The notes beneath the pieces were generated by a model. The model searched no databases and had not been told where the DNA came from. It saw nothing but the letters and a program-made list of their open reading frames with translations. Positions 822-14,677 of a stretch of 64,000 nt of DNA are shown piece after piece (the first letter of the stretch is position 1; each line of letters starts with the position of its first letter). The translations under genes and the position numbers were made by a program. The DNA is taken from NCBI RefSeq assembly GCF_050920415.1, contig NZ_CP169309.1; one strand, written 5' to 3'. The DNA is from Escherichia coli (GTDB lineage: Bacteria; Pseudomonadota; Gammaproteobacteria; Enterobacterales; Enterobacteriaceae).

Positions 822-2309
822 TCAGGCCTCCAGGCTTATCCAGATGGTTTTCAGTTCGGTGAATTTTTCAAGGGCGTGCAGGGATTTGTCGCGACCGTTG
901 CCGCTCTGCTTATAGCCGCCAAACGGCACGGTCATATCACCGTCGTTGTAGTTATTGACGAAGACGGAACCGGCTTTCAGGCGGCGACTCATGCGGTGCG
1001 CGCGGGAGAGGTCGCGTGTCCATACCGCCGCGCCAAGTCCGTACTGGCTGTCGTTGGCAAGCTGTAGCGCCTGTTCTTCTGATGTGAAACGCGTGACCAC
1101 CAGCACCGGACCGAAAATCTCTTCGCGGCTTAAGGACGCATTCGGGTCTACATCTACAAAGATGGTCGGGCCGATGGCGGCAGCCAGCTCGGCGTTACGG
1201 CCATCCAGCAGCAGTTGCCCTTTGCTTTCGCCTTCCCGAATAAAGCTATGGACCGAGTCGGCGTGGGCGCAGTCGATTAAGGTGCCCATGGTGGTTGCGG
1301 GATCAAGTGGATGGCCCGGCTGCCAGTTTTGCGCCTGCTGTTTTAACAGGGCTAAGAACTCATCGGCAATGCTCTCTTCCAGCAACAAACGCGTTCCGGC
1401 GATGCACACCTGGCCCTGGTTATAGAAGATACCTGCAGCGGTGGCACTCGCGGCTTTTTGCAGATCCGGGCAGTCAGCGAAAACGATGTTGGCGCTTTTG
1501 CCGCCCGCTTCCAGCCAGACGCGTTTCATGTTGCTGTCGCCTGCATCTTTCAGCAGCTGTTTCCCGGTACGGGTCGAACCGGTAAAGGCGATGGCATCGA
1601 TATCGTTATGACGCGACAGCGCCTGCCCCGCTTCATGACCAAAACCCGTCACCACGTTCAACACGCCATCCGGCAGACCTGCTTCTTTCGCCAGCCCGGC
1701 GAGACGAATCGCGCTAAGCGGTGATTTTTCCGACGGCTTCAGGACGACACTGTTCCCTGACGCCAGCGCCGGGCCGAGTTTCCAGCAGGTCAGCAGCAGC
1801 GGGAAGTTCCACGGTACAATGGCAGCAATCACGCCCACCGGTTCACGCACGATCATCGCCAGGTCATTGCTACTGGTGGTCGCCACTTCGCCATACACTT
1901 TGTCGATTGCTTCGGCGTACCAGCGAATGGCGCGCGCCGCGCCGGGAATATCATCACGCAGACTGTGACGAATCGGTTTGCCGGTGTCGAGCGTTTCCAG
2001 CAGTGCCAGCTCTTCGGCGTTGGCTTCCATTAAATCGGCGAGTTTATTCAGTACCGCTTTACGTTTTGCCGGAGAAGAGAGTGACCAGTCGCCGCGTTCA
2101 AATACGCCGCGTGCTGCGCTCACCGCACGGTCGATATCGACGCTCTTGCCGCGGGCAATTTTCGCCAGCGGTGCCTGGGTGACCGGATCAACGGTTTCAA
2201 AAGTTTCATTTTCCGCCGCAGCAGTATATTCACCGTTAATAAATAAGCGGGTTTCAATGGCGAGACTTAACGTTTTATCCTGCCAGTAAGCCAGATGATG
2301 AAAATTCAT
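822..2309 (-). CDS. puuC: gamma-glutamyl-gamma-aminobutyraldehyde dehydrogenase (aldehyde dehydrogenase family)
   Basis: ORF 822..2405 trimmed to internal start MNFHHLAYWQDK..., giving 495 aa; aldehyde dehydrogenase sequence throughout. Confidence 0.9.
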   Translation of the reverse strand: MNFHHLAYWQDKTLSLAIETRLFINGEYTAAAENETFETVDPVTQAPLAKIARGKSVDIDRAVSAARGVFERGDWSLSSPAKRKAVLNKLADLMEANAEELALLETLDTGKPIRHSLRDDIPGAARAIRWYAEAIDKVYGEVATTSSNDLAMIVREPVGVIAAIVPWNFPLLLTCWKLGPALASGNSVVLKPSEKSPLSAIRLAGLAKEAGLPDGVLNVVTGFGHEAGQALSRHNDIDAIAFTGSTRTGKQLLKDAGDSNMKRVWLEAGGKSANIVFADCPDLQKAASATAAGIFYNQGQVCIAGTRLLLEESIADEFLALLKQQAQNWQPGHPLDPATTMGTLIDCAHADSVHSFIREGESKGQLLLDGRNAELAAAIGPTIFVDVDPNASLSREEIFGPVLVVTRFTSEEQALQLANDSQYGLGAAVWTRDLSRAHRMSRRLKAGSVFVNNYNDGDMTVPFGGYKQSGNGRDKSLHALEKFTELKTIWISLEA

Positions 2310-2458
2310 TATGACTCCTGTTTCACGTGTATCAGATATATGCAGTTTGTGAACGTCAGGGCGCAGAGATCCCCGGGCCGTATGCCCGTTTATTTCTGGC
2401 GACATTCTTTATGGATTGCCGGGCGCATTGCGCTTACCCGGCTTACAGAACAAAAAGA

Positions 2459-3016
2459 TTAAAACGTGGTGGGCGTATGGGCGCTGATAATTCGGCAAAT
2501 ACCTGCCGACGTATTACTGAAACTGTGCGGGATGCCGGTATTAATGGCATAACTTTGCCCCGCGACGAGGTGGTAATCCTGACCATTAATCGTCAGAACA
2601 ATTTCACCTTCCAGTACAGTGCCTATTTCCTCACCCTGATGCTTAATTCTTTCCCCAGTGGTTGTGCCCGGCTGGTAAGTTTCAAAGATCATCGCCAGCG
2701 TGCGATTCGGGTTACCGTTATGAACCAGCTTCATTGACACACCCTGACTGCCCATCTCAATTAAGTCGTCCTGATTAATGACGACCTGTGGCTCATCAGG
2801 TTTTTCCGGCTCGGAAAAGAATTCCGAGAGTGACAGACCATACACCTTCAGCAGCTTTTGCAGCGTACTGATGGCAGGGCTGACTTTATCTTGTTCTATC
2901 GTACTGATAGCACTGTGAGTCAGCCCGGAGAGTTCGGCGGCACGACGTTGTGAAAGCCCCTGCTGCTGGCGGATTTCCGACAAGCGTTTTCCTGGCGCCA
3001 GTCCCTCATCACTCAT
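2459..3016 (-). CDS. puuR: HTH/cupin transcriptional repressor of putrescine utilisation
   Basis: 185-aa ORF with N-terminal HTH (QQQGLSQRRAAELSGLTHSAISTIEQ) and C-terminal cupin region. Confidence 0.9.
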   Translation of the reverse strand: MSDEGLAPGKRLSEIRQQQGLSQRRAAELSGLTHSAISTIEQDKVSPAISTLQKLLKVYGLSLSEFFSEPEKPDEPQVVINQDDLIEMGSQGVSMKLVHNGNPNRTLAMIFETYQPGTTTGERIKHQGEEIGTVLEGEIVLTINGQDYHLVAGQSYAINTGIPHSFSNTSAGICRIISAHTPTTF

Positions 3017-3042
3017 ATTTGCATTTCCTTAAACTGTAGTGG

Positions 3043-3807
3043 TCAGAGTCGCTGTTTTTCAGCGATATGGTGCTGACAAGCGGTGATAAAGCCCTCGAAC
3101 AATATACGCGAAAGCGCGTACTCGCTACTGTTCCATTCCGGGTGCCACTGTACGCCCAGCGCAAAAGGATGATTGATGACGCTAACCGCCTCAACTAAGC
3201 CATCCGGCGAGCGAGCTTCAACACGCAACCGTGGGCTAACGACCTTCGCCCCTTGTCCATGCAGAGAGTTTACCCAAAAGTTGCTACATTCAGGTAACAG
3301 TGCAGACAGCAATCCCCCCTCTTCAACCTGAACTTCATGCGACGGTGCATATTGCTGTTCCACCGGCAGTTCGGGATCTTCCCGATGTTCCAGCAATTCA
3401 GGCTGTTCGCACAGCTTGCGATGCAACGAACCACCGGTTGCCACCACCAGTTCCTGTAAACCCCGGCAGATGGCGAAAATGGGGATGCGCCTTTCGAGTG
3501 CGGCATTAATTAACGCCATGCTCAGAAGATCACGCCCGGGATCGGCGTCAGGCTCATCGCCGTTTTCACCATATAGGTGCGGCTGCACATTGCTGGGACT
3601 ACCAGGAAGATAAATACCATCGAGTTTCGGCAAAAGTTGTTCAAGTAATGACGGTTCCGCCAGCGCATGTGGCAGCGCAATTGGCAAGCCGCCTGCGTGG
3701 ATGATGGCATTCAGGTACTTTTCTTGCAGAGTCTGGGTCGCATGACCCTTAAGCCTGTTCCTGCACATTACGACACCGATAACCGGATTGTTCATTATAT
3801 TTTCCAT
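3043..3807 (-). CDS. puuD: gamma-glutamyl-GABA hydrolase
   Basis: ORF trimmed to MENIMNNPVIGVV..., 254 aa; glutamine amidotransferase-like. Confidence 0.88.
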   Translation of the reverse strand: MENIMNNPVIGVVMCRNRLKGHATQTLQEKYLNAIIHAGGLPIALPHALAEPSLLEQLLPKLDGIYLPGSPSNVQPHLYGENGDEPDADPGRDLLSMALINAALERRIPIFAICRGLQELVVATGGSLHRKLCEQPELLEHREDPELPVEQQYAPSHEVQVEEGGLLSALLPECSNFWVNSLHGQGAKVVSPRLRVEARSPDGLVEAVSVINHPFALGVQWHPEWNSSEYALSRILFEGFITACQHHIAEKQRL

Positions 3808-4018
3808 GCTCAATCTCACAAAGTGGACTAAATTATCGCCATTACTGCGCTTTAAATGACCTTTATGTTCAATATTTTTTCAATTTAGCAGCGGGTTTTC
3901 ATTTTTGCAAACTCAATTTAACATTTGACAAACATTTAGTTTGCATACAGATTCGAATGGTGGTCATTATATTTTACGCTTTGATAACGAGCGGAAAACA
4001 AACCAAAGGCGAAGAATC
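3808..4018. promoter_or_regulatory. divergent puuD / puuA promoter-operator region
   Basis: AT-rich 211 bp intergenic between divergently oriented puuD and puuA; individual sites not resolved. Confidence 0.5.
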
Positions 4019-5437
4019 ATGGAAACCAATATCGTTGAAGTAGAGAACTTTGTTCAGCAGTCAGAAGAGAGGCGGGGTAGCGCCTTTACGCAGGAAGTGA
4101 AACGCTACCTGGAGCGCTACCCGAATACGCAATATGTTGATGTTTTACTTACCGATCTGAATGGTTGTTTTCGTGGGAAACGTATTCCTGTTTCAAGCCT
4201 GAAGAAGCTCGAGAAAGGGTGTTATTTCCCGGCCTCGGTGTTTGCAATGGATATTCTGGGCAACGTAGTAGAAGAAGCGGGCCTGGGTCAGGAAATGGGC
4301 GAGCCGGATCGTACCTGTGTTCCTGTTCTCGGTTCCTTAACCCCATCTGCTGCAGATCCTGAGTTTATCGGTCAGATGCTCCTGACCATGGTCGATGAAG
4401 ATGGCGCTCCCTTTGACGTTGAGCCGCGGAACGTTCTTAACCGCCTGTGGCAGCAGCTACGCCAGCGCGGATTGTTCCCGGTTGTAGCGGTAGAGCTGGA
4501 GTTCTATTTACTGGATCGCCAGCGCGACGCTGAAGGGTATCTGCAACCGCCCTGCGCGCCCGGCACCGATGACCGCAATACACAAAGTCAGGTTTACTCC
4601 GTTGATAACCTCAACCACTTCGCCGACGTGCTCAATGATATTGATGAGCTGGCGCAGTTACAGCTGATTCCGGCAGATGGCGCGGTCGCCGAGGCCTCGC
4701 CAGGTCAGTTTGAAATCAATCTTTACCATACCGATAACGTGCTGGAAGCTTGCGATGATGCGCTGGCACTAAAACGCCTGGTGCGTCTGATGGCAGAAAA
4801 GCATAAGATGCACGCCACTTTTATGGCGAAGCCGTATGAAGAGCACGCGGGCAGCGGGATGCATATCCATATCAGTATGCAAAATAATCGTGGCGAGAAC
4901 GTGCTTTCTGACGCGGAAGGCGAAGATTCGCCGCTGCTGAAAAAGATGCTCGCCGGGATGATTGACCTGATGCCGTCATCAATGGCGTTGCTGGCACCAA
5001 ACGTGAACTCGTATCGCCGCTTCCAGCCGGGGATGTATGTACCGACGCAGGCGTCGTGGGGCCATAACAACCGCACCGTCGCCCTGCGTATTCCCTGCGG
5101 CGATCGCCATAATCACCGCGTGGAATATCGCGTGGCGGGTGCCGATGCCAACCCGTATTTGGTGATGGCAGCGATTTTTGCCGGTATTTTGCACGGTCTT
5201 GATAACGCGCTGCCGTTGCAGGAAGAAGTCGAAGGCAACGGGCTGGAGCAGGAAGGCTTACCCTTCCCGATTCGCCAAAGCGATGCCCTGAGTGAGTTTA
5301 TCGAGAACGATCATCTACGCCGCTATTTAGGTGATCGCTTCTGCCATGTCTATCACGCCTGTAAAAATGATGAGCTGTTGCAGTTTGAGCGCCTCATCAC
5401 AGAAACAGAAATTGAGTGGATGCTCAAAAACGCGTAA
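4019..5437 (+). CDS. puuA: glutamate-putrescine ligase (glutamine synthetase family)
   Basis: ORF 3941..5437 trimmed to METNIVEVENF..., 472 aa. Confidence 0.9.
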   Translation: METNIVEVENFVQQSEERRGSAFTQEVKRYLERYPNTQYVDVLLTDLNGCFRGKRIPVSSLKKLEKGCYFPASVFAMDILGNVVEEAGLGQEMGEPDRTCVPVLGSLTPSAADPEFIGQMLLTMVDEDGAPFDVEPRNVLNRLWQQLRQRGLFPVVAVELEFYLLDRQRDAEGYLQPPCAPGTDDRNTQSQVYSVDNLNHFADVLNDIDELAQLQLIPADGAVAEASPGQFEINLYHTDNVLEACDDALALKRLVRLMAEKHKMHATFMAKPYEEHAGSGMHIHISMQNNRGENVLSDAEGEDSPLLKKMLAGMIDLMPSSMALLAPNVNSYRRFQPGMYVPTQASWGHNNRTVALRIPCGDRHNHRVEYRVAGADANPYLVMAAIFAGILHGLDNALPLQEEVEGNGLEQEGLPFPIRQSDALSEFIENDHLRRYLGDRFCHVYHACKNDELLQFERLITETEIEWMLKNA

Positions 5438-12292: not shown

Positions 12293-13099
12293 ATGATCGA
12301 AACGCTGCTTGAAGTGCGTAATTTAAGTAAAACGTTCCGTTACCGGACCGGCTGGTTTCGTCGTCAGACCGTAGAAGCGGTAAAACCTTTGAGCTTTACG
12401 CTACGTGAAGGCCAGACACTGGCGATCATTGGCGAGAATGGTTCTGGTAAATCCACGCTGGCGAAAATGCTGGCGGGAATGATAGAACCGACCAGCGGCG
12501 AGTTATTGATTGACGATCATCCGCTGCATTTTGGCGATTATTCCTTCCGTAGTCAGCGTATTCGCATGATTTTTCAGGATCCTTCGACCTCGTTGAATCC
12601 CCGTCAACGTATCTCGCAGATTCTTGATTTTCCACTGCGCTTGAACACCGATCTGGAACCTGAACAGCGTCGGAAACAGATTATTGAAACGATGCGGATG
12701 GTTGGGCTGCTACCGGATCACGTCAGTTACTATCCGCATATGTTGGCACCCGGGCAAAAACAGCGTCTGGGGCTGGCGCGCGCGCTGATATTGCGCCCAA
12801 AAGTCATTATTGCCGATGAAGCCCTCGCCTCACTGGATATGTCGATGCGTTCGCAGTTGATTAATCTGATGCTGGAGTTACAGGAAAAACAGGGCATTTC
12901 GTATATTTATGTTACCCAGCATATTGGGATGATGAAGCACATTAGCGACCAGGTACTGGTGATGCATCAGGGCGAGGTTGTCGAGCGAGGTAGTACTGCG
13001 GATGTGCTCGCCTCTCCGCTGCACGACCTCACTAAACGACTGATTGCCGGTCATTTTGGCGAGGCATTGACGGCGGATGCGTGGCGTAAGGACCGTTAA
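12293..13099 (+). CDS. sapF: Sap ABC transporter ATP-binding protein
   Basis: 268 aa with Walker A (GENGSGKST). Confidence 0.92.
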   Translation: MIETLLEVRNLSKTFRYRTGWFRRQTVEAVKPLSFTLREGQTLAIIGENGSGKSTLAKMLAGMIEPTSGELLIDDHPLHFGDYSFRSQRIRMIFQDPSTSLNPRQRISQILDFPLRLNTDLEPEQRRKQIIETMRMVGLLPDHVSYYPHMLAPGQKQRLGLARALILRPKVIIADEALASLDMSMRSQLINLMLELQEKQGISYIYVTQHIGMMKHISDQVLVMHQGEVVERGSTADVLASPLHDLTKRLIAGHFGEALTADAWRKDR

Positions 13100-13169
13100 T
13101 TTTCTGAATCAAGCTTGCAGAATATTCACCTCATTCTGACAGGGAAATTCATCCTGTCAGAATGAAGGG

Positions 13170-13532
13170 ATGGATAAAATAAAAGCAAATGCCCGCGATT
13201 TAAGACGCAACCTCACCCCGCAGGAGCGAAAGTTCTGGCGATATCTTCGCAGCCGACGTTTTGCTGATTTCAAATTTCGCCGTCAACATCCGGTGGGGAA
13301 TTACATTCTCGATTTTGCCTGTTGCTCTGCACGTTTAGCGGTAGAGCTTGATGGTGGGCAACATGATTCAGCTATCGCGTATGATACCAGGCGCACGCGC
13401 TGGCTTGAGTCCCAGGGCTGGACCGTGCTGCGTTTCTGGAATAACGAGATCGATCATAATGAAGAGGCGGTTCTGGGGGAGATTCTGCAGGAACTGAGCC
13501 GCCGGTCACCCTCACCCCAACCCTCTCCCTGA
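13170..13532 (+). CDS. ycjD: DUF559-family protein YcjD; 3' end runs into a repeat element
   Basis: 120-aa ORF MDKIKANARDLRRNLTPQERKFWRYL...; C-terminal codons lie inside the repeat region 13478-13568. Confidence 0.75.
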   Translation: MDKIKANARDLRRNLTPQERKFWRYLRSRRFADFKFRRQHPVGNYILDFACCSARLAVELDGGQHDSAIAYDTRRTRWLESQGWTVLRFWNNEIDHNEEAVLGEILQELSRRSPSPQPSP

Positions 13533-13740
13533 AAGGGCGAGGGGGCTGTATGTGCCTGTTTGTTGCTGCGCAGGCAAATGAACAAGCGGTGCCGGGGATC
13601 ATTCTGCAGGAACTGAGCCGCCTGTTACCCTCTCCCTGAAAGGGCATGGGGGCTGTATGTGCCTGTTTGTTGCTGGGGTGACAACGCGCACAATCGGTCC
13701 CCTCGCCCCTCTGGGGAGAGGGTTAGGGTGAGGGGAAAAG
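13478..13740. repeat. cluster of hairpin repeats: two direct copies (~13482-13568 and ~13601-13676) plus an inverted copy of the ccctcacccNaaccctctccc motif (13713-13736)
   Basis: Direct reading: attctgcaggaactgagccgcc...ccctctccctgaaagggc(g/a)(a/t)gggggctgtatgtgcctgtttgttgctg occurs twice; ggggagagggttagggtgagggg is the reverse complement of the motif at 13509-13529. Confidence 0.7.
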
Positions 13741-13888
13741 CGCACACCCGTGCCCACATTCCTGCCAACTATAGCCACTCACACCCAGGTTGATTATAAT
13801 AACCGTTTATCTGTTCGTACTGTTTATTCAAACGACGAATCGCCTGATTTTCAGGCAACAACAAGCATCAACAATAAGGATTAAAGCT

Positions 13889-14677
13889 ATGGGTTTTCTT
13901 TCCGGTAAGCGCATTCTGGTAACCGGTGTTGCCAGCAAACTGTCCATCGCCTACGGTATCGCTCAGGCGATGCACCGCGAAGGAGCTGAACTGGCATTCA
14001 CCTACCAGAACGACAAACTGAAAGGCCGCGTAGAAGAATTTGCCGCTCAATTGGGTTCTGACATCGTTCTGCAGTGCGATGTTGCAGAAGATGCCAGCAT
14101 CGACACCATGTTCGCTGAACTGGGTAAAGTTTGGCCGAAATTTGACGGCTTTGTACATTCCATTGGTTTTGCACCGGGCGATCAGCTGGATGGTGACTAT
14201 GTTAACGCCGTTACTCGTGAAGGCTTCAAAATTGCCCACGACATCAGCTCCTACAGCTTCGTTGCAATGGCAAAAGCTTGCCGCTCCATGCTGAATCCGG
14301 GCTCTGCCCTGCTGACCCTTTCCTACCTTGGCGCTGAGCGCGCTATCCCGAACTACAACGTTATGGGTCTGGCAAAAGCGTCTCTGGAAGCGAACGTGCG
14401 CTATATGGCGAACGCGATGGGTCCGGAAGGTGTGCGTGTTAACGCCATCTCTGCTGGTCCGATCCGTACTCTGGCGGCTTCCGGTATCAAAGACTTCCGC
14501 AAAATGCTGGCTCATTGCGAAGCCGTTACCCCGATTCGCCGTACCGTTACTATTGAAGATGTGGGTAACTCTGCGGCATTCCTGTGCTCCGATCTCTCTG
14601 CCGGTATCTCCGGTGAAGTGGTCCACGTTGACGGCGGTTTCAGCATCGCTGCAATGAACGAACTCGAACTGAAATAA
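13889..14677 (+). CDS. fabI: enoyl-ACP reductase (NADH)
   Basis: ORF trimmed to [26 protein letters not shown]..., 262 aa. Confidence 0.95.

What the first reader, a model, noticed from the sequence alone, without database searches (positions are those of the whole stretch)
13478..13740. ycjD 3' end is built from a duplicated hairpin repeat, with a second orphan copy of the gene end downstream
Seen in sequence: the last ~18 codons of ycjD (GEILQELSRRSPSPQPSP*) lie inside a repeat (13482-13568) that recurs about 119 bp downstream (13601-13676). The second copy would encode a near-identical tail, GIILQELSRLLPSP* (translated by hand), and differs mainly by a short indel. Both copies contain the imperfect hairpin ccctctccc-tgaaa-gggcgaggg, and a third, inverted copy of the ccctcacccNaaccctctccc motif sits at 13713-13736. 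This looks like a REP/BIME-like element that has been duplicated and has supplied or altered the C-terminus of a protein, a small-scale example of a repeat element remodelling a coding end.
Basis: seen in the sequence. Interest (0 to 1): 0.4.

Follow-up and report, generated by a model that had tools for sequence, protein, structure and literature searches.

The report
Box C repeats capping the ycjD nuclease gene
The repeat is real but is the long-known E. coli "Box C" element at the locus where it was first described; the new lead is that small YcjD-type nuclease genes across bacteria are bracketed by inverted copies of this repeat, which suggests the orphan repeat family has a partner enzyme.

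Summary
Observation confirmed. ycjD (13170-13532) ends inside a repeat. A 119/107-bp tandem duplication (13458-13576, 13577-13684; 82% identical, one 12-nt indel) re-creates the gene's last ~17 codons. A third, inverted copy lies at 13700-13735.

The repeat is not REP/BIME. It is Box C, also published as PIT, TMECO and HPG1/2: CCCTCNCCC-N3-6-GGGNGAGGG-N3-GGGNGAGGG. Copy 3 is identical to MG1655 TMECO no. 9.

Box C supplies the last 7 codons and the stop of YcjD. Gain or loss of repeat units and loop changes give at least five different YcjD C-termini among E. coli strains. In some strains the "orphan" copy is the real gene end.

The overlap is not a local accident. In 80 homologous loci from many phyla, a motif of this kind overlaps the 3' end in 61 and lies just upstream in inverted orientation in 50. 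Distal flanks hold 58 hits in 390 kb. The 3' repeat is read in all three frames, so what is conserved is DNA, not peptide.

I infer that YcjD-family Vsr-like nucleases are the cognate enzymes of Box C, analogous to RAYT and REP. This is untested. I found no such link in the searchable literature.

The parts
13170..13532 (+). ycjD CDS, 120 aa. The DUF559 (Vsr-like PD-(D/E)XK nuclease) domain covers residues 3-109. Residues 114-120 (PSPQPSP) and the TGA stop are encoded by Box C copy 1.
   Evidence: ORF. Pfam DUF559 E = 7.5e-47, residues 3-109. NCBIfam NF007294, 233.8 bits against a cutoff of 218. PDB 3HRL E = 2e-28. dN/dS 0.19 against the K-12 allele.
13458..13576 (+). Tandem unit 1 (119 nt): the last 51 nt of ordinary ycjD coding sequence, a complete Box C, and about 30 nt of tail.
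13577..13684 (+). Tandem unit 2 (107-108 nt): an orphan copy of the ycjD 3' end (would read GIILQELSRLLPSP*, stop at 13637-13639), a Box C hairpin lacking the outer block, and a tail.
   Evidence: This unit is exactly deleted in strain 2017-02-2CC. The homologous unit is the real gene end in the P0016 locus.
13509..13543 (-). Box C / TMECO copy 1, complete. Minus strand: CCCTCGCCC-TTTCA-GGGAGAGGG-TTG-GGGTGAGGG. The ycjD stop codon TGA (13530-13532) lies in the hairpin loop.
   Evidence: Exact pattern match. Loop 1 is the same as MG1655 TMECO no. 10.
13628..13650 (-). Box C copy 2, partial. Only the hairpin CCCTCTCCC-TGAAA-GGGCATGGG is present, with two stem mismatches and no third block.
   Evidence: No full-pattern match at this position.
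13700..13735 (+). Box C / TMECO copy 3, complete, type 'A mm': CCCTCGCCCCTCTGGGGAGAGGGTTAGGGTGAGGGG.
   Evidence: Identical to TMECO no. 9 (29 min) of MG1655 in Table 1 of PMC4666352. The 63-nt region has a median of 17 places per E. coli genome.
13509..13734 (.). Long imperfect palindrome. The extended Box C copy 1 (13509-13560) pairs with the extended copy 3 (13683-13734), enclosing unit 2.
   Evidence: Inverted repeat I1, 52 nt, 79% complementary. RNA fold -135.8 kcal/mol, z = -6.4.
13132..13164 (+). A 12-bp perfect hairpin (CATTCTGACAGG / CCTGTCAGAATG) 6 nt upstream of the ycjD start. It sits where homologues in other phyla carry the 5' inverted Box C-like repeat. It is kept in the K-12 allele through a GG:CC to AA:TT double change.
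   Evidence: It has no T-run, so it is not a canonical terminator.
13772..13800 (+). fabI promoter-like site (context only). It marks the right-hand end of the hypervariable ycjD/Box C cassette.
   Evidence: Homology with ycjD-less genomes resumes at about 13776.

Best explanation
SHOWN.

The repeats between ycjD and fabI are three copies of the known dispersed element Box C (also called PIT, TMECO, HPG1/2). Each is a C-rich block, a loop, a complementary G-rich block, and a second G-rich block.
- Copy 1 is on the minus strand and is complete. It overlaps the last 7 codons and the stop codon of ycjD.
- Copy 3 is on the plus strand and forms a long inverted repeat with copy 1.
- Copy 2 exists because a ~119-bp segment was tandemly duplicated. 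That segment comprises 51 nt of ycjD coding end, Box C and a tail.

The duplication predates the split of the two deeply diverged E. coli ycjD alleles. In the window allele it has been partly homogenised by gene conversion. It still gains and loses units by recombination between the copies, which swaps the protein's C-terminus between strains.

The overlap of gene and repeat is the normal layout of the YcjD subfamily of DUF559 nucleases. Across Proteobacteria, Cyanobacteria, Melainabacteria, Chloroflexi, Deinococcota and candidate phyla, the ~115-130 aa gene is bracketed by inverted Box C-like repeats about 315-400 bp apart. The 3' repeat starts at a fixed point about 22 residues after the RFWN motif.

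INFERRED.

Gene and repeat form one evolutionary unit. YcjD is the cognate nuclease of Box C, much as RAYT transposases are single-copy, vertically inherited genes flanked by the REP repeats they act on.

Proposed mechanism: when single-stranded, a Box C folds. The Vsr-like nickase recognises the fold, possibly through the built-in G.T or G.A mispair of the commonest 'mm' subtype. The nick is repaired by copying from another Box C. That would keep the dispersed copies nearly identical, occasionally seed new ones, and provoke local slippage, duplication and deletion of the kind seen in this window.
For: Identity as Box C/TMECO:
- The full pattern matches exactly at 13509-13543 (-) and 13700-13734 (+), with 0 expected by chance.
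- Copy 3 equals MG1655 TMECO no. 9.
- The 63-nt copy-3 region has a median of 17 and up to 31 places per E. coli genome.

Local tandem duplication:
- The ycjD-derived part and the tail of the unit occur only at this locus.
- The K-12 allele has the same architecture.
- Copy identities are: window c1-c2 82%, K-12 c1-c2 69%, c1-c1 78%, c2-c2 73%.
- Strain 2017-02-2CC has an exact one-unit deletion.
- In the P0016 locus a deletion fuses ycjD to the copy-2 tail. In the P0001 locus a loop change removes the stop codon.

Family-wide unit:
- Enterobacterial homologues end in PSPRPSP*, which is the reverse complement of a type-B TMECO.
- In Enterobacter and allied genera the gene sits at hemW|yggM, not sapF|fabI.
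- In L007 the two flanking 40-nt repeats are inverted copies differing at one base.
- In 23 loci the left and right repeats co-vary within each locus.
- Structural scan of 80 loci: 3'(-) in 61, 5'(+) in 50, both in 41. Distal flanks hold 58 hits in 390 kb.
- Most loci that the scans missed carry AT-shifted variants of the same three-block design.
- The 3' repeat is read in all three frames (18/20/23).
- 97 of 137 cluster representatives have repeat-like tail peptides. In 67 of them the tail starts a median of 22 aa after RFWN, interquartile range 20-23.
- Independent loci in Deinococcus, Azospirillum, Picosynechococcus, Synechocystis, Neisseria and Klebsiella carry such motifs on at least one side of the gene.

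The nuclease is probably active:
- D48, E59, D61 and H65 are invariant in the alignment.
- dN/dS is 0.19.

Hints of a gene-repeat relationship:
- The predicted DNA fold of copy 3 pairs the C block with the outer G block.
- In a spread sample, ycjD+ E. coli genomes have 14-36 places matching the query and ycjD- genomes have 1-18.
- [Erwinia] mediterraneensis has about eight tandem 103-bp units after the gene, the same phenomenon as here.
Against: - No biochemical evidence links YcjD to Box C.
- E. coli and other enterics lack the 5' repeat. Their layout is gene, then (-), then (+). Orientation is reversed in Deinococcus.
- Paralogues within one genome are only 65-73% identical, so no recent movement of the gene unit is seen.
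- No target-site duplication is evident.
- ycjD-less E. coli such as O157:H7 still keep about 14 copies. The copy-number contrast is confounded by phylogeny.
- Published work found no promoter, terminator or in vivo polymerase-blocking activity for the motif, and no in vivo triplex (PMC4666352).
- I could search only open-access literature, so the link may already be published elsewhere.
Confidence: 0.72

Rival explanations
1. One reading: a REP/BIME-like element landed at the end of ycjD in E. coli, was duplicated, and thereby recently replaced the protein's C-terminus.
For: The repeat does encode the tail and stop codon. Tails differ between strains.
Against: - The sequence fits the Box C/TMECO pattern, not REP. 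True REPs look quite different, for example at E. coli hemW-yggM.
- The same gene-end and repeat overlap is found in homologues at other loci and in other phyla. It is therefore ancestral, not a recent local capture.
Confidence: 0.05
2. The link is passive. Box C-like repeats insert preferentially next to DUF559 genes, or those genes sit in recombination-prone gaps where such repeats collect. The nuclease does not act on them.
For: - Repeats also cluster in the wider flanks, and in both orientations: 5'(-) in 25 loci and 3'(+) in 32 loci.
- Enterics lack the 5' copy.
- Box C persists in ycjD-less E. coli.
Against: - The position of the 3' repeat is fixed relative to the domain end (median 22 aa, interquartile range 20-23).
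- The spacing between repeats is 315-400 bp, and left and right repeats co-vary across phyla. Independent insertions would scatter.
- Enrichment near the gene is large: in the orientation-specific windows next to the gene about 1 locus in 80 would be expected from the distal density, against 50 and 61 observed.
Confidence: 0.2
3. The repeats are cis-regulatory parts of the gene itself. They could be mRNA-stabilising or terminating hairpins, or an insulator shielding neighbours such as the fabI promoter. The dispersed copies would then be by-products.
For: The 3' UTR folds into a very stable long hairpin (z = -6.4). The repeats sit between ycjD and the fabI promoter-like site.
Against: - There is no T-run and no terminator-like site in the repeats.
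- Earlier experiments, summarised in PMC4666352, found no promoter or terminator activity.
- This idea does not explain the upstream inverted copy, or the tens to over a hundred dispersed copies per genome.
Confidence: 0.08
4. The proline-rich tail (PSPxPSP) is a functional peptide kept by selection on the protein, and the DNA repeat is a consequence of that.
For: PSPRPSP* is identical in many enterobacterial genera.
Against: - Across 61 loci the repeat is read in all three frames (18/20/23). This gives unrelated tails such as PHPSPLPQAGEG and LSPSPSPASGRGE, and variable stop positions.
- The same DNA occurs upstream and in non-coding places.
- E. coli strains tolerate five different tails.
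Confidence: 0.02

Closest known systems
Box C / PIT element / TMECO / HPG1-HPG2 (E. coli dispersed G/C-rich three-block repeat: Bergler 1992; Hoyne and Maher 2000; Holder 2015, PMC4666352; Kaplan 2016, PMC5100583)
   Same: Same sequence pattern. Copy 3 is letter-for-letter MG1655 TMECO no. 9. The element is multi-copy in E. coli genomes, occurs as inverted pairs of a type-A and a type-B-like copy, and sits in a hypervariable locus.
   Different: Published descriptions say the motif is 'always intergenic' in MG1655 and is not linked to any mobile element or gene class. Here a complete copy overlaps a coding end. The neighbouring gene family turns out to be flanked by the motif in many phyla.
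REP / REPIN with RAYT (REP-associated tyrosine transposase)
   Same: A single-copy, mostly chromosomal and vertically inherited nuclease gene is flanked by inverted copies of a short, structured repeat. That repeat is dispersed through the same genome, partly as inverted doublets.
   Different: The enzyme is a ~120-aa Vsr-like PD-(D/E)XK nuclease, not an HUH Y1 transposase. The repeat has three blocks (a hairpin plus an extra arm), not a simple REP hairpin with a GTAG/CGTC tag. The 3' repeat overlaps the coding end. No activity has been shown.
Vsr-like (EDxHD) homing endonucleases such as I-Bth0305I, and Vsr itself
   Same: Same fold family (DUF559/Vsr clan; PDB 3HRL is a close relative). PMC3424549 lists Vsr, DUF559 and a group I intron homing endonuclease in one clade. 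The genes are small and free-standing.
   Different: This gene is not inside an intron or intein. No empty target site was identified. Vsr's partner methyltransferase is absent at this locus.
MITEs (miniature inverted-repeat transposable elements)
   Same: Terminal inverted repeats bracket a short segment. Gene-less inverted pairs of the same repeat exist in MG1655 (five pairs; PMC4666352).
   Different: No target-site duplication was seen. No classical transposase is present. Gene-carrying copies are old and diverged.

Membership tests
Box C / TMECO | Sequence pattern 5'-CCCTCNCCC N3-6 GGGNGAGGG N3 GGGNGAGGG-3' (PMC4666352) | tested here: met
   Exact matches at 13509-13543 (-) and 13700-13734 (+), with 0 expected by chance. 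Copy 2 (13628-13650) has only the hairpin and fails the pattern.
Box C / TMECO | Dispersed, multi-copy and highly similar within E. coli genomes | tested here: met
   The 63-nt copy-3 query matches 5,425 of 5,426 genomes, with a median of 17 places per genome and up to 31. Copy 3 is identical to MG1655 no. 9.
Box C / TMECO | Intergenic location ('always located intergenically' in MG1655) | tested here: not met
   Copy 1 covers ycjD codons 114-120 and the stop codon. This is a descriptive property in the paper, not a structural requirement of the family.
Box C / TMECO | Forms an intrastrand triplex or G-quadruplex/hairpin switch | not testable with these tools
   Only Watson-Crick folding could be predicted. 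In vitro triplex formation was reported in PMC4666352.
REP / BIME | REP consensus hairpin (GCCGGATGCGGCG... type with a GTAG/CGTC tag), clustered as BIMEs | tested here: not met
   The sequence read has no REP consensus. For contrast, genuine REPs are seen at E. coli hemW-yggM.
RAYT/REPIN-like system (works like) | Nuclease gene flanked by inverted copies of the dispersed repeat | tested here: met
   Both flanks carry the motif in 41 of 80 loci, and at least one flank in 70 of 80. Paired repeat sequences are shown. In the window itself only the 3' side carries repeats.
RAYT/REPIN-like system (member of) | HUH Y1 transposase fold | tested here: not met
   The only Pfam matches are DUF559 and REase_MTES_1575, which have the PD-(D/E)XK fold.
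RAYT/REPIN-like system (works like) | The enzyme binds or cleaves its repeat, and repeat populations depend on the gene | tested here: inconclusive
   Only a confounded copy-number contrast is available: ycjD+ genomes have 14-36 places and ycjD- genomes have 1-18. Biochemistry is not testable here.
DUF559 / Vsr-like PD-(D/E)XK nuclease | Profile match and conserved catalytic-type residues | tested here: met
   Pfam E = 7.5e-47. NCBIfam NF007294 scores above its cutoff. PDB 3HRL E = 2e-28. D48, E59, D61 and H65 are invariant.
Homing endonuclease gene | Presence/absence polymorphism at a defined target site, or residence in an intron or intein | tested here: inconclusive
   The gene is free-standing. 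E. coli genomes without ycjD carry the eefRABCD island instead, which is not a clean empty site. The hemW-yggM gap in E. coli shows no relic.
MITE / IS-like transposon | Target-site duplication and recent identical copies | tested here: not met
   No direct repeats flank the inverted repeats. Paralogues are 65-73% identical. The gene is rare on plasmids and phages.
Intrinsic terminator | GC-rich hairpin followed by a T-run | tested here: not met
   No terminator-like site lies in 13500-13750.

The most novel reading that the evidence does not exclude
YcjD-family DUF559 proteins are the missing partner enzymes of Box C/PIT/TMECO repeats. This would be a second, independent REP/RAYT-like partnership, built on a ~120-aa Vsr-like PD-(D/E)XK nickase instead of an HUH transposase. 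The nickase would recognise a folded three-block repeat, possibly through its built-in G.T mispair. It would maintain, homogenise and occasionally spread the repeat in genomes from many bacterial phyla.
Probability: 0.35. Interest if true: 0.8.

Novelty: new variant of a known kind. Interest (0 to 1): 0.55.

Why it matters
Box C has been described four times under four names since 1992 without a function, origin or partner protein. YcjD is an uncharacterised E. coli K-12 gene.

A conserved physical coupling between the two gives both a concrete, cheap test: does YcjD nick Box C DNA, and do Box C copies decay or stop changing without it? If the coupling holds, several things would follow.
- The REP/RAYT idea of long-lived, vertically inherited repeat-enzyme partnerships would extend to a second nuclease superfamily.
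- The unusual near-identity of Box C copies, and the hypervariability reported around them, would be explained.
- Thousands of odd proline/glycine-rich tails annotated on small "endonuclease domain" proteins would be accounted for.

At the level of this window alone, the feature is ordinary and already known.

Tried and rejected
- Rfam scan of 12800-14200: only a chance hairpin hit at E = 0.72.
- Tandem Repeats Finder did not report the two-copy, 82% identical, indel-bearing duplication. The repeat finder did.
- Terminator scan: nothing in the repeats.
- Small-hairpin stability: not better than shuffles for copies 1 and 2, so "stable hairpin" is not the defining property.
- Recent transposition: paralogous DUF559 loci within single MAGs are only 65-73% identical or not alignable.
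- Relic at the Enterobacter-type site in E. coli (hemW-yggM): only REPs, no Box C.
- Carriage on plasmids or phages: 41 plasmid records, several of them multi-megabase replicons of chromosome or chromid size, and 2 phage records. These are not an obvious vehicle.
- Defence-system models (PADLOC): only marginal partial hits.
- Copy number against ycjD presence in E. coli: a trend exists but it is confounded by phylogroup. B2 strains have 1-5 places and O157:H7 has 14 without ycjD. It is not decisive.
- Literature searches for DUF559, ycjD, COG2852/PF04480, TMECO/PIT/BoxC, the repeat's literal sequence, and Vsr-like+REP/REPIN found no paper connecting the gene family to the repeat. Only open-access papers and bioRxiv are covered.
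Full report
**1. What is in the window**

The locus is sapF (12293-13099), ycjD (13170-13532) and fabI (from 13890). YcjD is a 120-aa DUF559 protein. DUF559 is a Vsr-like PD-(D/E)XK nuclease domain.
- Pfam matches residues 3-109 at E = 7.5e-47.
- NCBIfam NF007294 scores above its cutoff.
- The closest solved structure is 3HRL at E = 2e-28.

- 13458-13576 recurs at 13577-13684 in two blocks, 83% and 90% identical, separated by a 12-nt indel. Overall identity is 82%.
- A 22-mer is shared exactly, with none expected by chance.
- Copy 2 would read GIILQELSRLLPSP*.
- An inverted copy sits at 13700-13735.
- Copies 1 and 3, with about 17 nt of extra flank each, form a 52-nt, 79% complementary inverted repeat.
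- The whole 3' region therefore folds into one long hairpin (-135.8 kcal/mol, z = -6.4).

**2. What the repeat is**

It is not REP/BIME. It matches the pattern CCCTCNCCC-N3-6-GGGNGAGGG-N3-GGGNGAGGG. This pattern was published as TMECO and earlier as Box C and PIT (PMC4666352). It was published again as a "G-quadruplex-hairpin-duplex switch" (PMC5100583).

- The pattern occurs exactly twice in the 64 kb window: 13509-13543 on the minus strand and 13700-13734 on the plus strand.
- Copy 3 is letter-for-letter TMECO no. 9 of MG1655 at 29 min.
- The copy-3 region occurs at a median of 17 places per E. coli genome.
- The reference given for Box C in PMC4666352 is the 1992 envM (= fabI) sequence paper. 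From my own recollection, Box C was first defined in this very intergenic region. I could not read that paper.
- Copy 2 has only the hairpin and lacks the outer block.

**3. Two different things are repeated**

The 51 nt upstream of Box C in each unit is ordinary ycjD coding sequence. It lies partly inside the Pfam domain. It is found nowhere else in E. coli genomes. The tail of the unit is also specific to this locus. So the 119/107-bp unit is a local tandem duplication that happens to contain a Box C. It is not a larger mobile element.

The K-12-type allele is present in about 3,370 of 5,426 genomes. It is only 82% identical to the window over 800 bp but has the same architecture, with more decayed copies.

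Copy identities are as follows.

| Comparison | Identity |
|---|---|
| Window copy 1 vs copy 2 | 82% |
| K-12 copy 1 vs copy 2 | 69% |
| Copy 1 vs copy 1 across alleles | 78% |
| Copy 2 vs copy 2 across alleles | 73% |

These fit one old duplication followed by partial gene conversion in the window lineage. Consistent with that, the tail of copy 1 in the window is identical to the tail of copy 2.

**4. The repeat really does remodel the protein end**

Box C copy 1 encodes residues 114-120 (PSPQPSP). The TGA stop lies in its hairpin loop. Among E. coli strains I found the following variants.

| YcjD length | C-terminus | Cause |
|---|---|---|
| 117 aa | ...RRSPSP* | K-12 allele; outer block absent |
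| 120 aa | ...PSPQPSP* | This window |
| 134 aa | ...PQRGEGAVCACLLLG* | Loop change removes the stop, plus deletion of one unit |
| 147/148 aa | Different tail throughout | Deletion with a crossover inside ycjD fuses the gene body to the "orphan" copy-2 tail; reading continues into copy 3 |
| 159 aa | Read-through form | Read-through |

- The 12-nt difference between the 117-aa and 120-aa forms was also noted for ST69 and ST182 in PMC12817139.
- Strain 2017-02-2CC has the window allele with exactly one 107-bp unit deleted.

**5. The overlap is not a local accident**

- Homologues from Klebsiella, Kluyvera, Enterobacter, Lelliottia, Phytobacter and others are 120 aa and end in PSPRPSP*. That is the reverse complement of a type-B TMECO.
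- In Enterobacter, Pluralibacter, Phytobacter and Pseudocitrobacter the gene lies between hemW and yggM, not between sapF and fabI.
- In an unrelated MAG (57% protein identity) the gene is bracketed by two 40-nt inverted repeats of this type that differ at one base. One overlaps the start and the other overlaps the stop.

I then fetched 80 homologous loci from species-representative genomes. They include alpha-, beta- and gamma-proteobacteria, cyanobacteria, Melainabacteria, Chloroflexi, Elusimicrobia, Dadabacteria and a CPR bacterium.
- A strict pattern with up to 2 substitutions found a motif at the 3' end in 53 loci and upstream in 39.
- A structure-based scan (C block, loop, complementary G block, second G block) found 3'(-) in 61, 5'(+) in 50, both in 41 and neither in 10. 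Distal flanks held 58 hits in 390 kb.
- Most loci that the scans missed have AT-shifted versions of the same design, for example CCTTCCC-loop-GGGAAGG-TT-GGGATGGG.
- Left and right repeats co-vary within each locus and lie 315-400 bp apart.
- The 3' repeat is read in all three frames (18/20/23). This yields PSPRPSP*, PHPSPLPQAGEG... or LSPSPSPASGRGE*. The conservation is therefore in the DNA, not the peptide.
- In an independent sample, 97 of 137 representatives have such tails. These are 50%-identity cluster representatives from 1.84 billion proteins.
- In 67 of them the tail starts a median of 22 residues after the RFWN motif, with an interquartile range of 20-23.
- Further loci in Deinococcus, Azospirillum, Picosynechococcus, Synechocystis, Neisseria and Klebsiella carry such motifs on at least one side of the gene. 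Orientation varies.
- Tandem amplification behind the gene recurs elsewhere. [Erwinia] mediterraneensis has about eight 103-bp units, each starting with the repeat, closed by an inverted copy.

**6. How it most likely works**

Shown:
- the gene and the repeat are coupled with fixed geometry across phyla;
- the nuclease is under purifying selection (dN/dS 0.19 at dS 0.43 between the two E. coli alleles);
- catalytic-type residues are invariant;
- the gene is chromosomal and rarely on plasmids or phages;
- paralogues are old.

This profile resembles RAYT genes and their REP/REPIN repeats more than an insertion sequence.

Inferred: YcjD is the cognate nickase of Box C. A specific, testable idea follows from two facts. 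The commonest subtype ('A mm', the type of copy 3) cannot pair perfectly. Against the inner G block it has a G.A mispair, and against the outer G block it has a G.T mispair. The predicted fold of copy 3 uses the outer block. From established knowledge, Vsr is a T:G-mismatch nickase. Nick-induced repair from another copy would explain three things:
- the near-identity of dispersed copies;
- the hypervariability reported around them (PMC4666352);
- the slippage, duplication, conversion and deletion seen here.

I put about 0.35-0.5 on this mechanistic step.

**7. Evidence against, and limits**

- Enterobacterial loci, including this window, have no recognisable 5' repeat. Their layout is gene, (-), (+). 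A different hairpin at 13132-13164 sits where the 5' repeat would be.
- No target-site duplications were seen.
- No clean empty site was found.
- E. coli lacking ycjD keeps up to 18 copies. B2 strains have 1-5. The contrast with ycjD+ genomes (14-36) is confounded by phylogeny.
- Earlier experiments found no promoter, terminator or in vivo blocking activity and no in vivo triplex.

**8. Novelty**

The window-level feature (Box C copies between ycjD and fabI) is already known. The four published descriptions of the motif that I could read or see summarised do not mention ycjD, DUF559 or any nuclease. One states that the motif is always intergenic and not associated with mobile elements.

Searches for DUF559, ycjD, COG2852/PF04480, the motif names and its literal sequence found no paper making the link. 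The library covers only open-access papers and bioRxiv, so prior description elsewhere cannot be excluded.

I rate the finding as a new variant of a known kind: a REP/RAYT-like partnership with a different enzyme and a different repeat. The interest is moderate because the central functional claim is untested.

Noticed in passing
window 13132-13164: A perfect 12-bp hairpin (CATTCTGACAGG / CCTGTCAGAATG, 9-nt loop) sits 6 nt upstream of the ycjD start. The K-12 allele keeps it through a double change (GG:CC to AA:TT). It has no T-run, and a weak promoter-like match appears on both strands. It occupies the place of the 5' inverted repeat seen in other phyla.
   Followed up: partly
window 13111-13790: The whole sapF-fabI spacer, including ycjD, is a deeply diverged cassette. 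It is 82% identical to the K-12 allele (dS 0.43 in ycjD), whereas in two genomes representing the two allele classes fabI encodes the same protein accession and SapF carries adjacent accessions. Only 4-5 of 5,426 complete E. coli genomes carry the window allele. The closest non-E. coli protein is from Escherichia ruysiae (88%).
   Followed up: partly
L003 (E. coli ZLWT) 1-2500, against window 13100-13776: About 2,050 E. coli genomes have no ycjD. They carry a TetR-family regulator and an RND efflux operon (eefRABCD) at the same site. This was already published (PMC12817139). No Box C was seen at the fabI-proximal junction.
   Followed up: yes
L046 ([Erwinia] mediterraneensis) 3330-4130: About eight tandem 103-bp units follow the DUF559 gene. 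Each begins with a minus-strand Box C-like repeat and ends with a few nucleotides resembling the gene's 3' end. A plus-strand copy closes the array. This is a larger version of the window's two-unit array.
   Followed up: partly
L035 (Methylococcus capsulatus) 1190-4550: Ten Box C-like motifs lie within 6.3 kb around the DUF559 gene. A long downstream ORF reads through tandem repeat-encoded peptide units (ENESPSPAGSGG...). Annotated proteins in such genomes may often be repeat read-through artefacts.
   Followed up: no
window 13740-13775, against L002 and L090: Directly after Box C copy 3 the window lacks about 14 nt (GCCTGCTCCGGTCG/AGA) that is present in the K-12-type and 2017-02-2CC alleles. 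This is another small indel next to the repeat, just upstream of the fabI promoter-like site at 13772-13800.
   Followed up: no
P0058 (Shigella dysenteriae, 158 aa): This YcjD variant has repeat-derived sequence (ADHPHPERARGPTEPNSCC...) inserted inside the nuclease domain after residue ~86. The insertion is followed by the copy-2-type tail, so the gene is probably inactivated.
   Followed up: no
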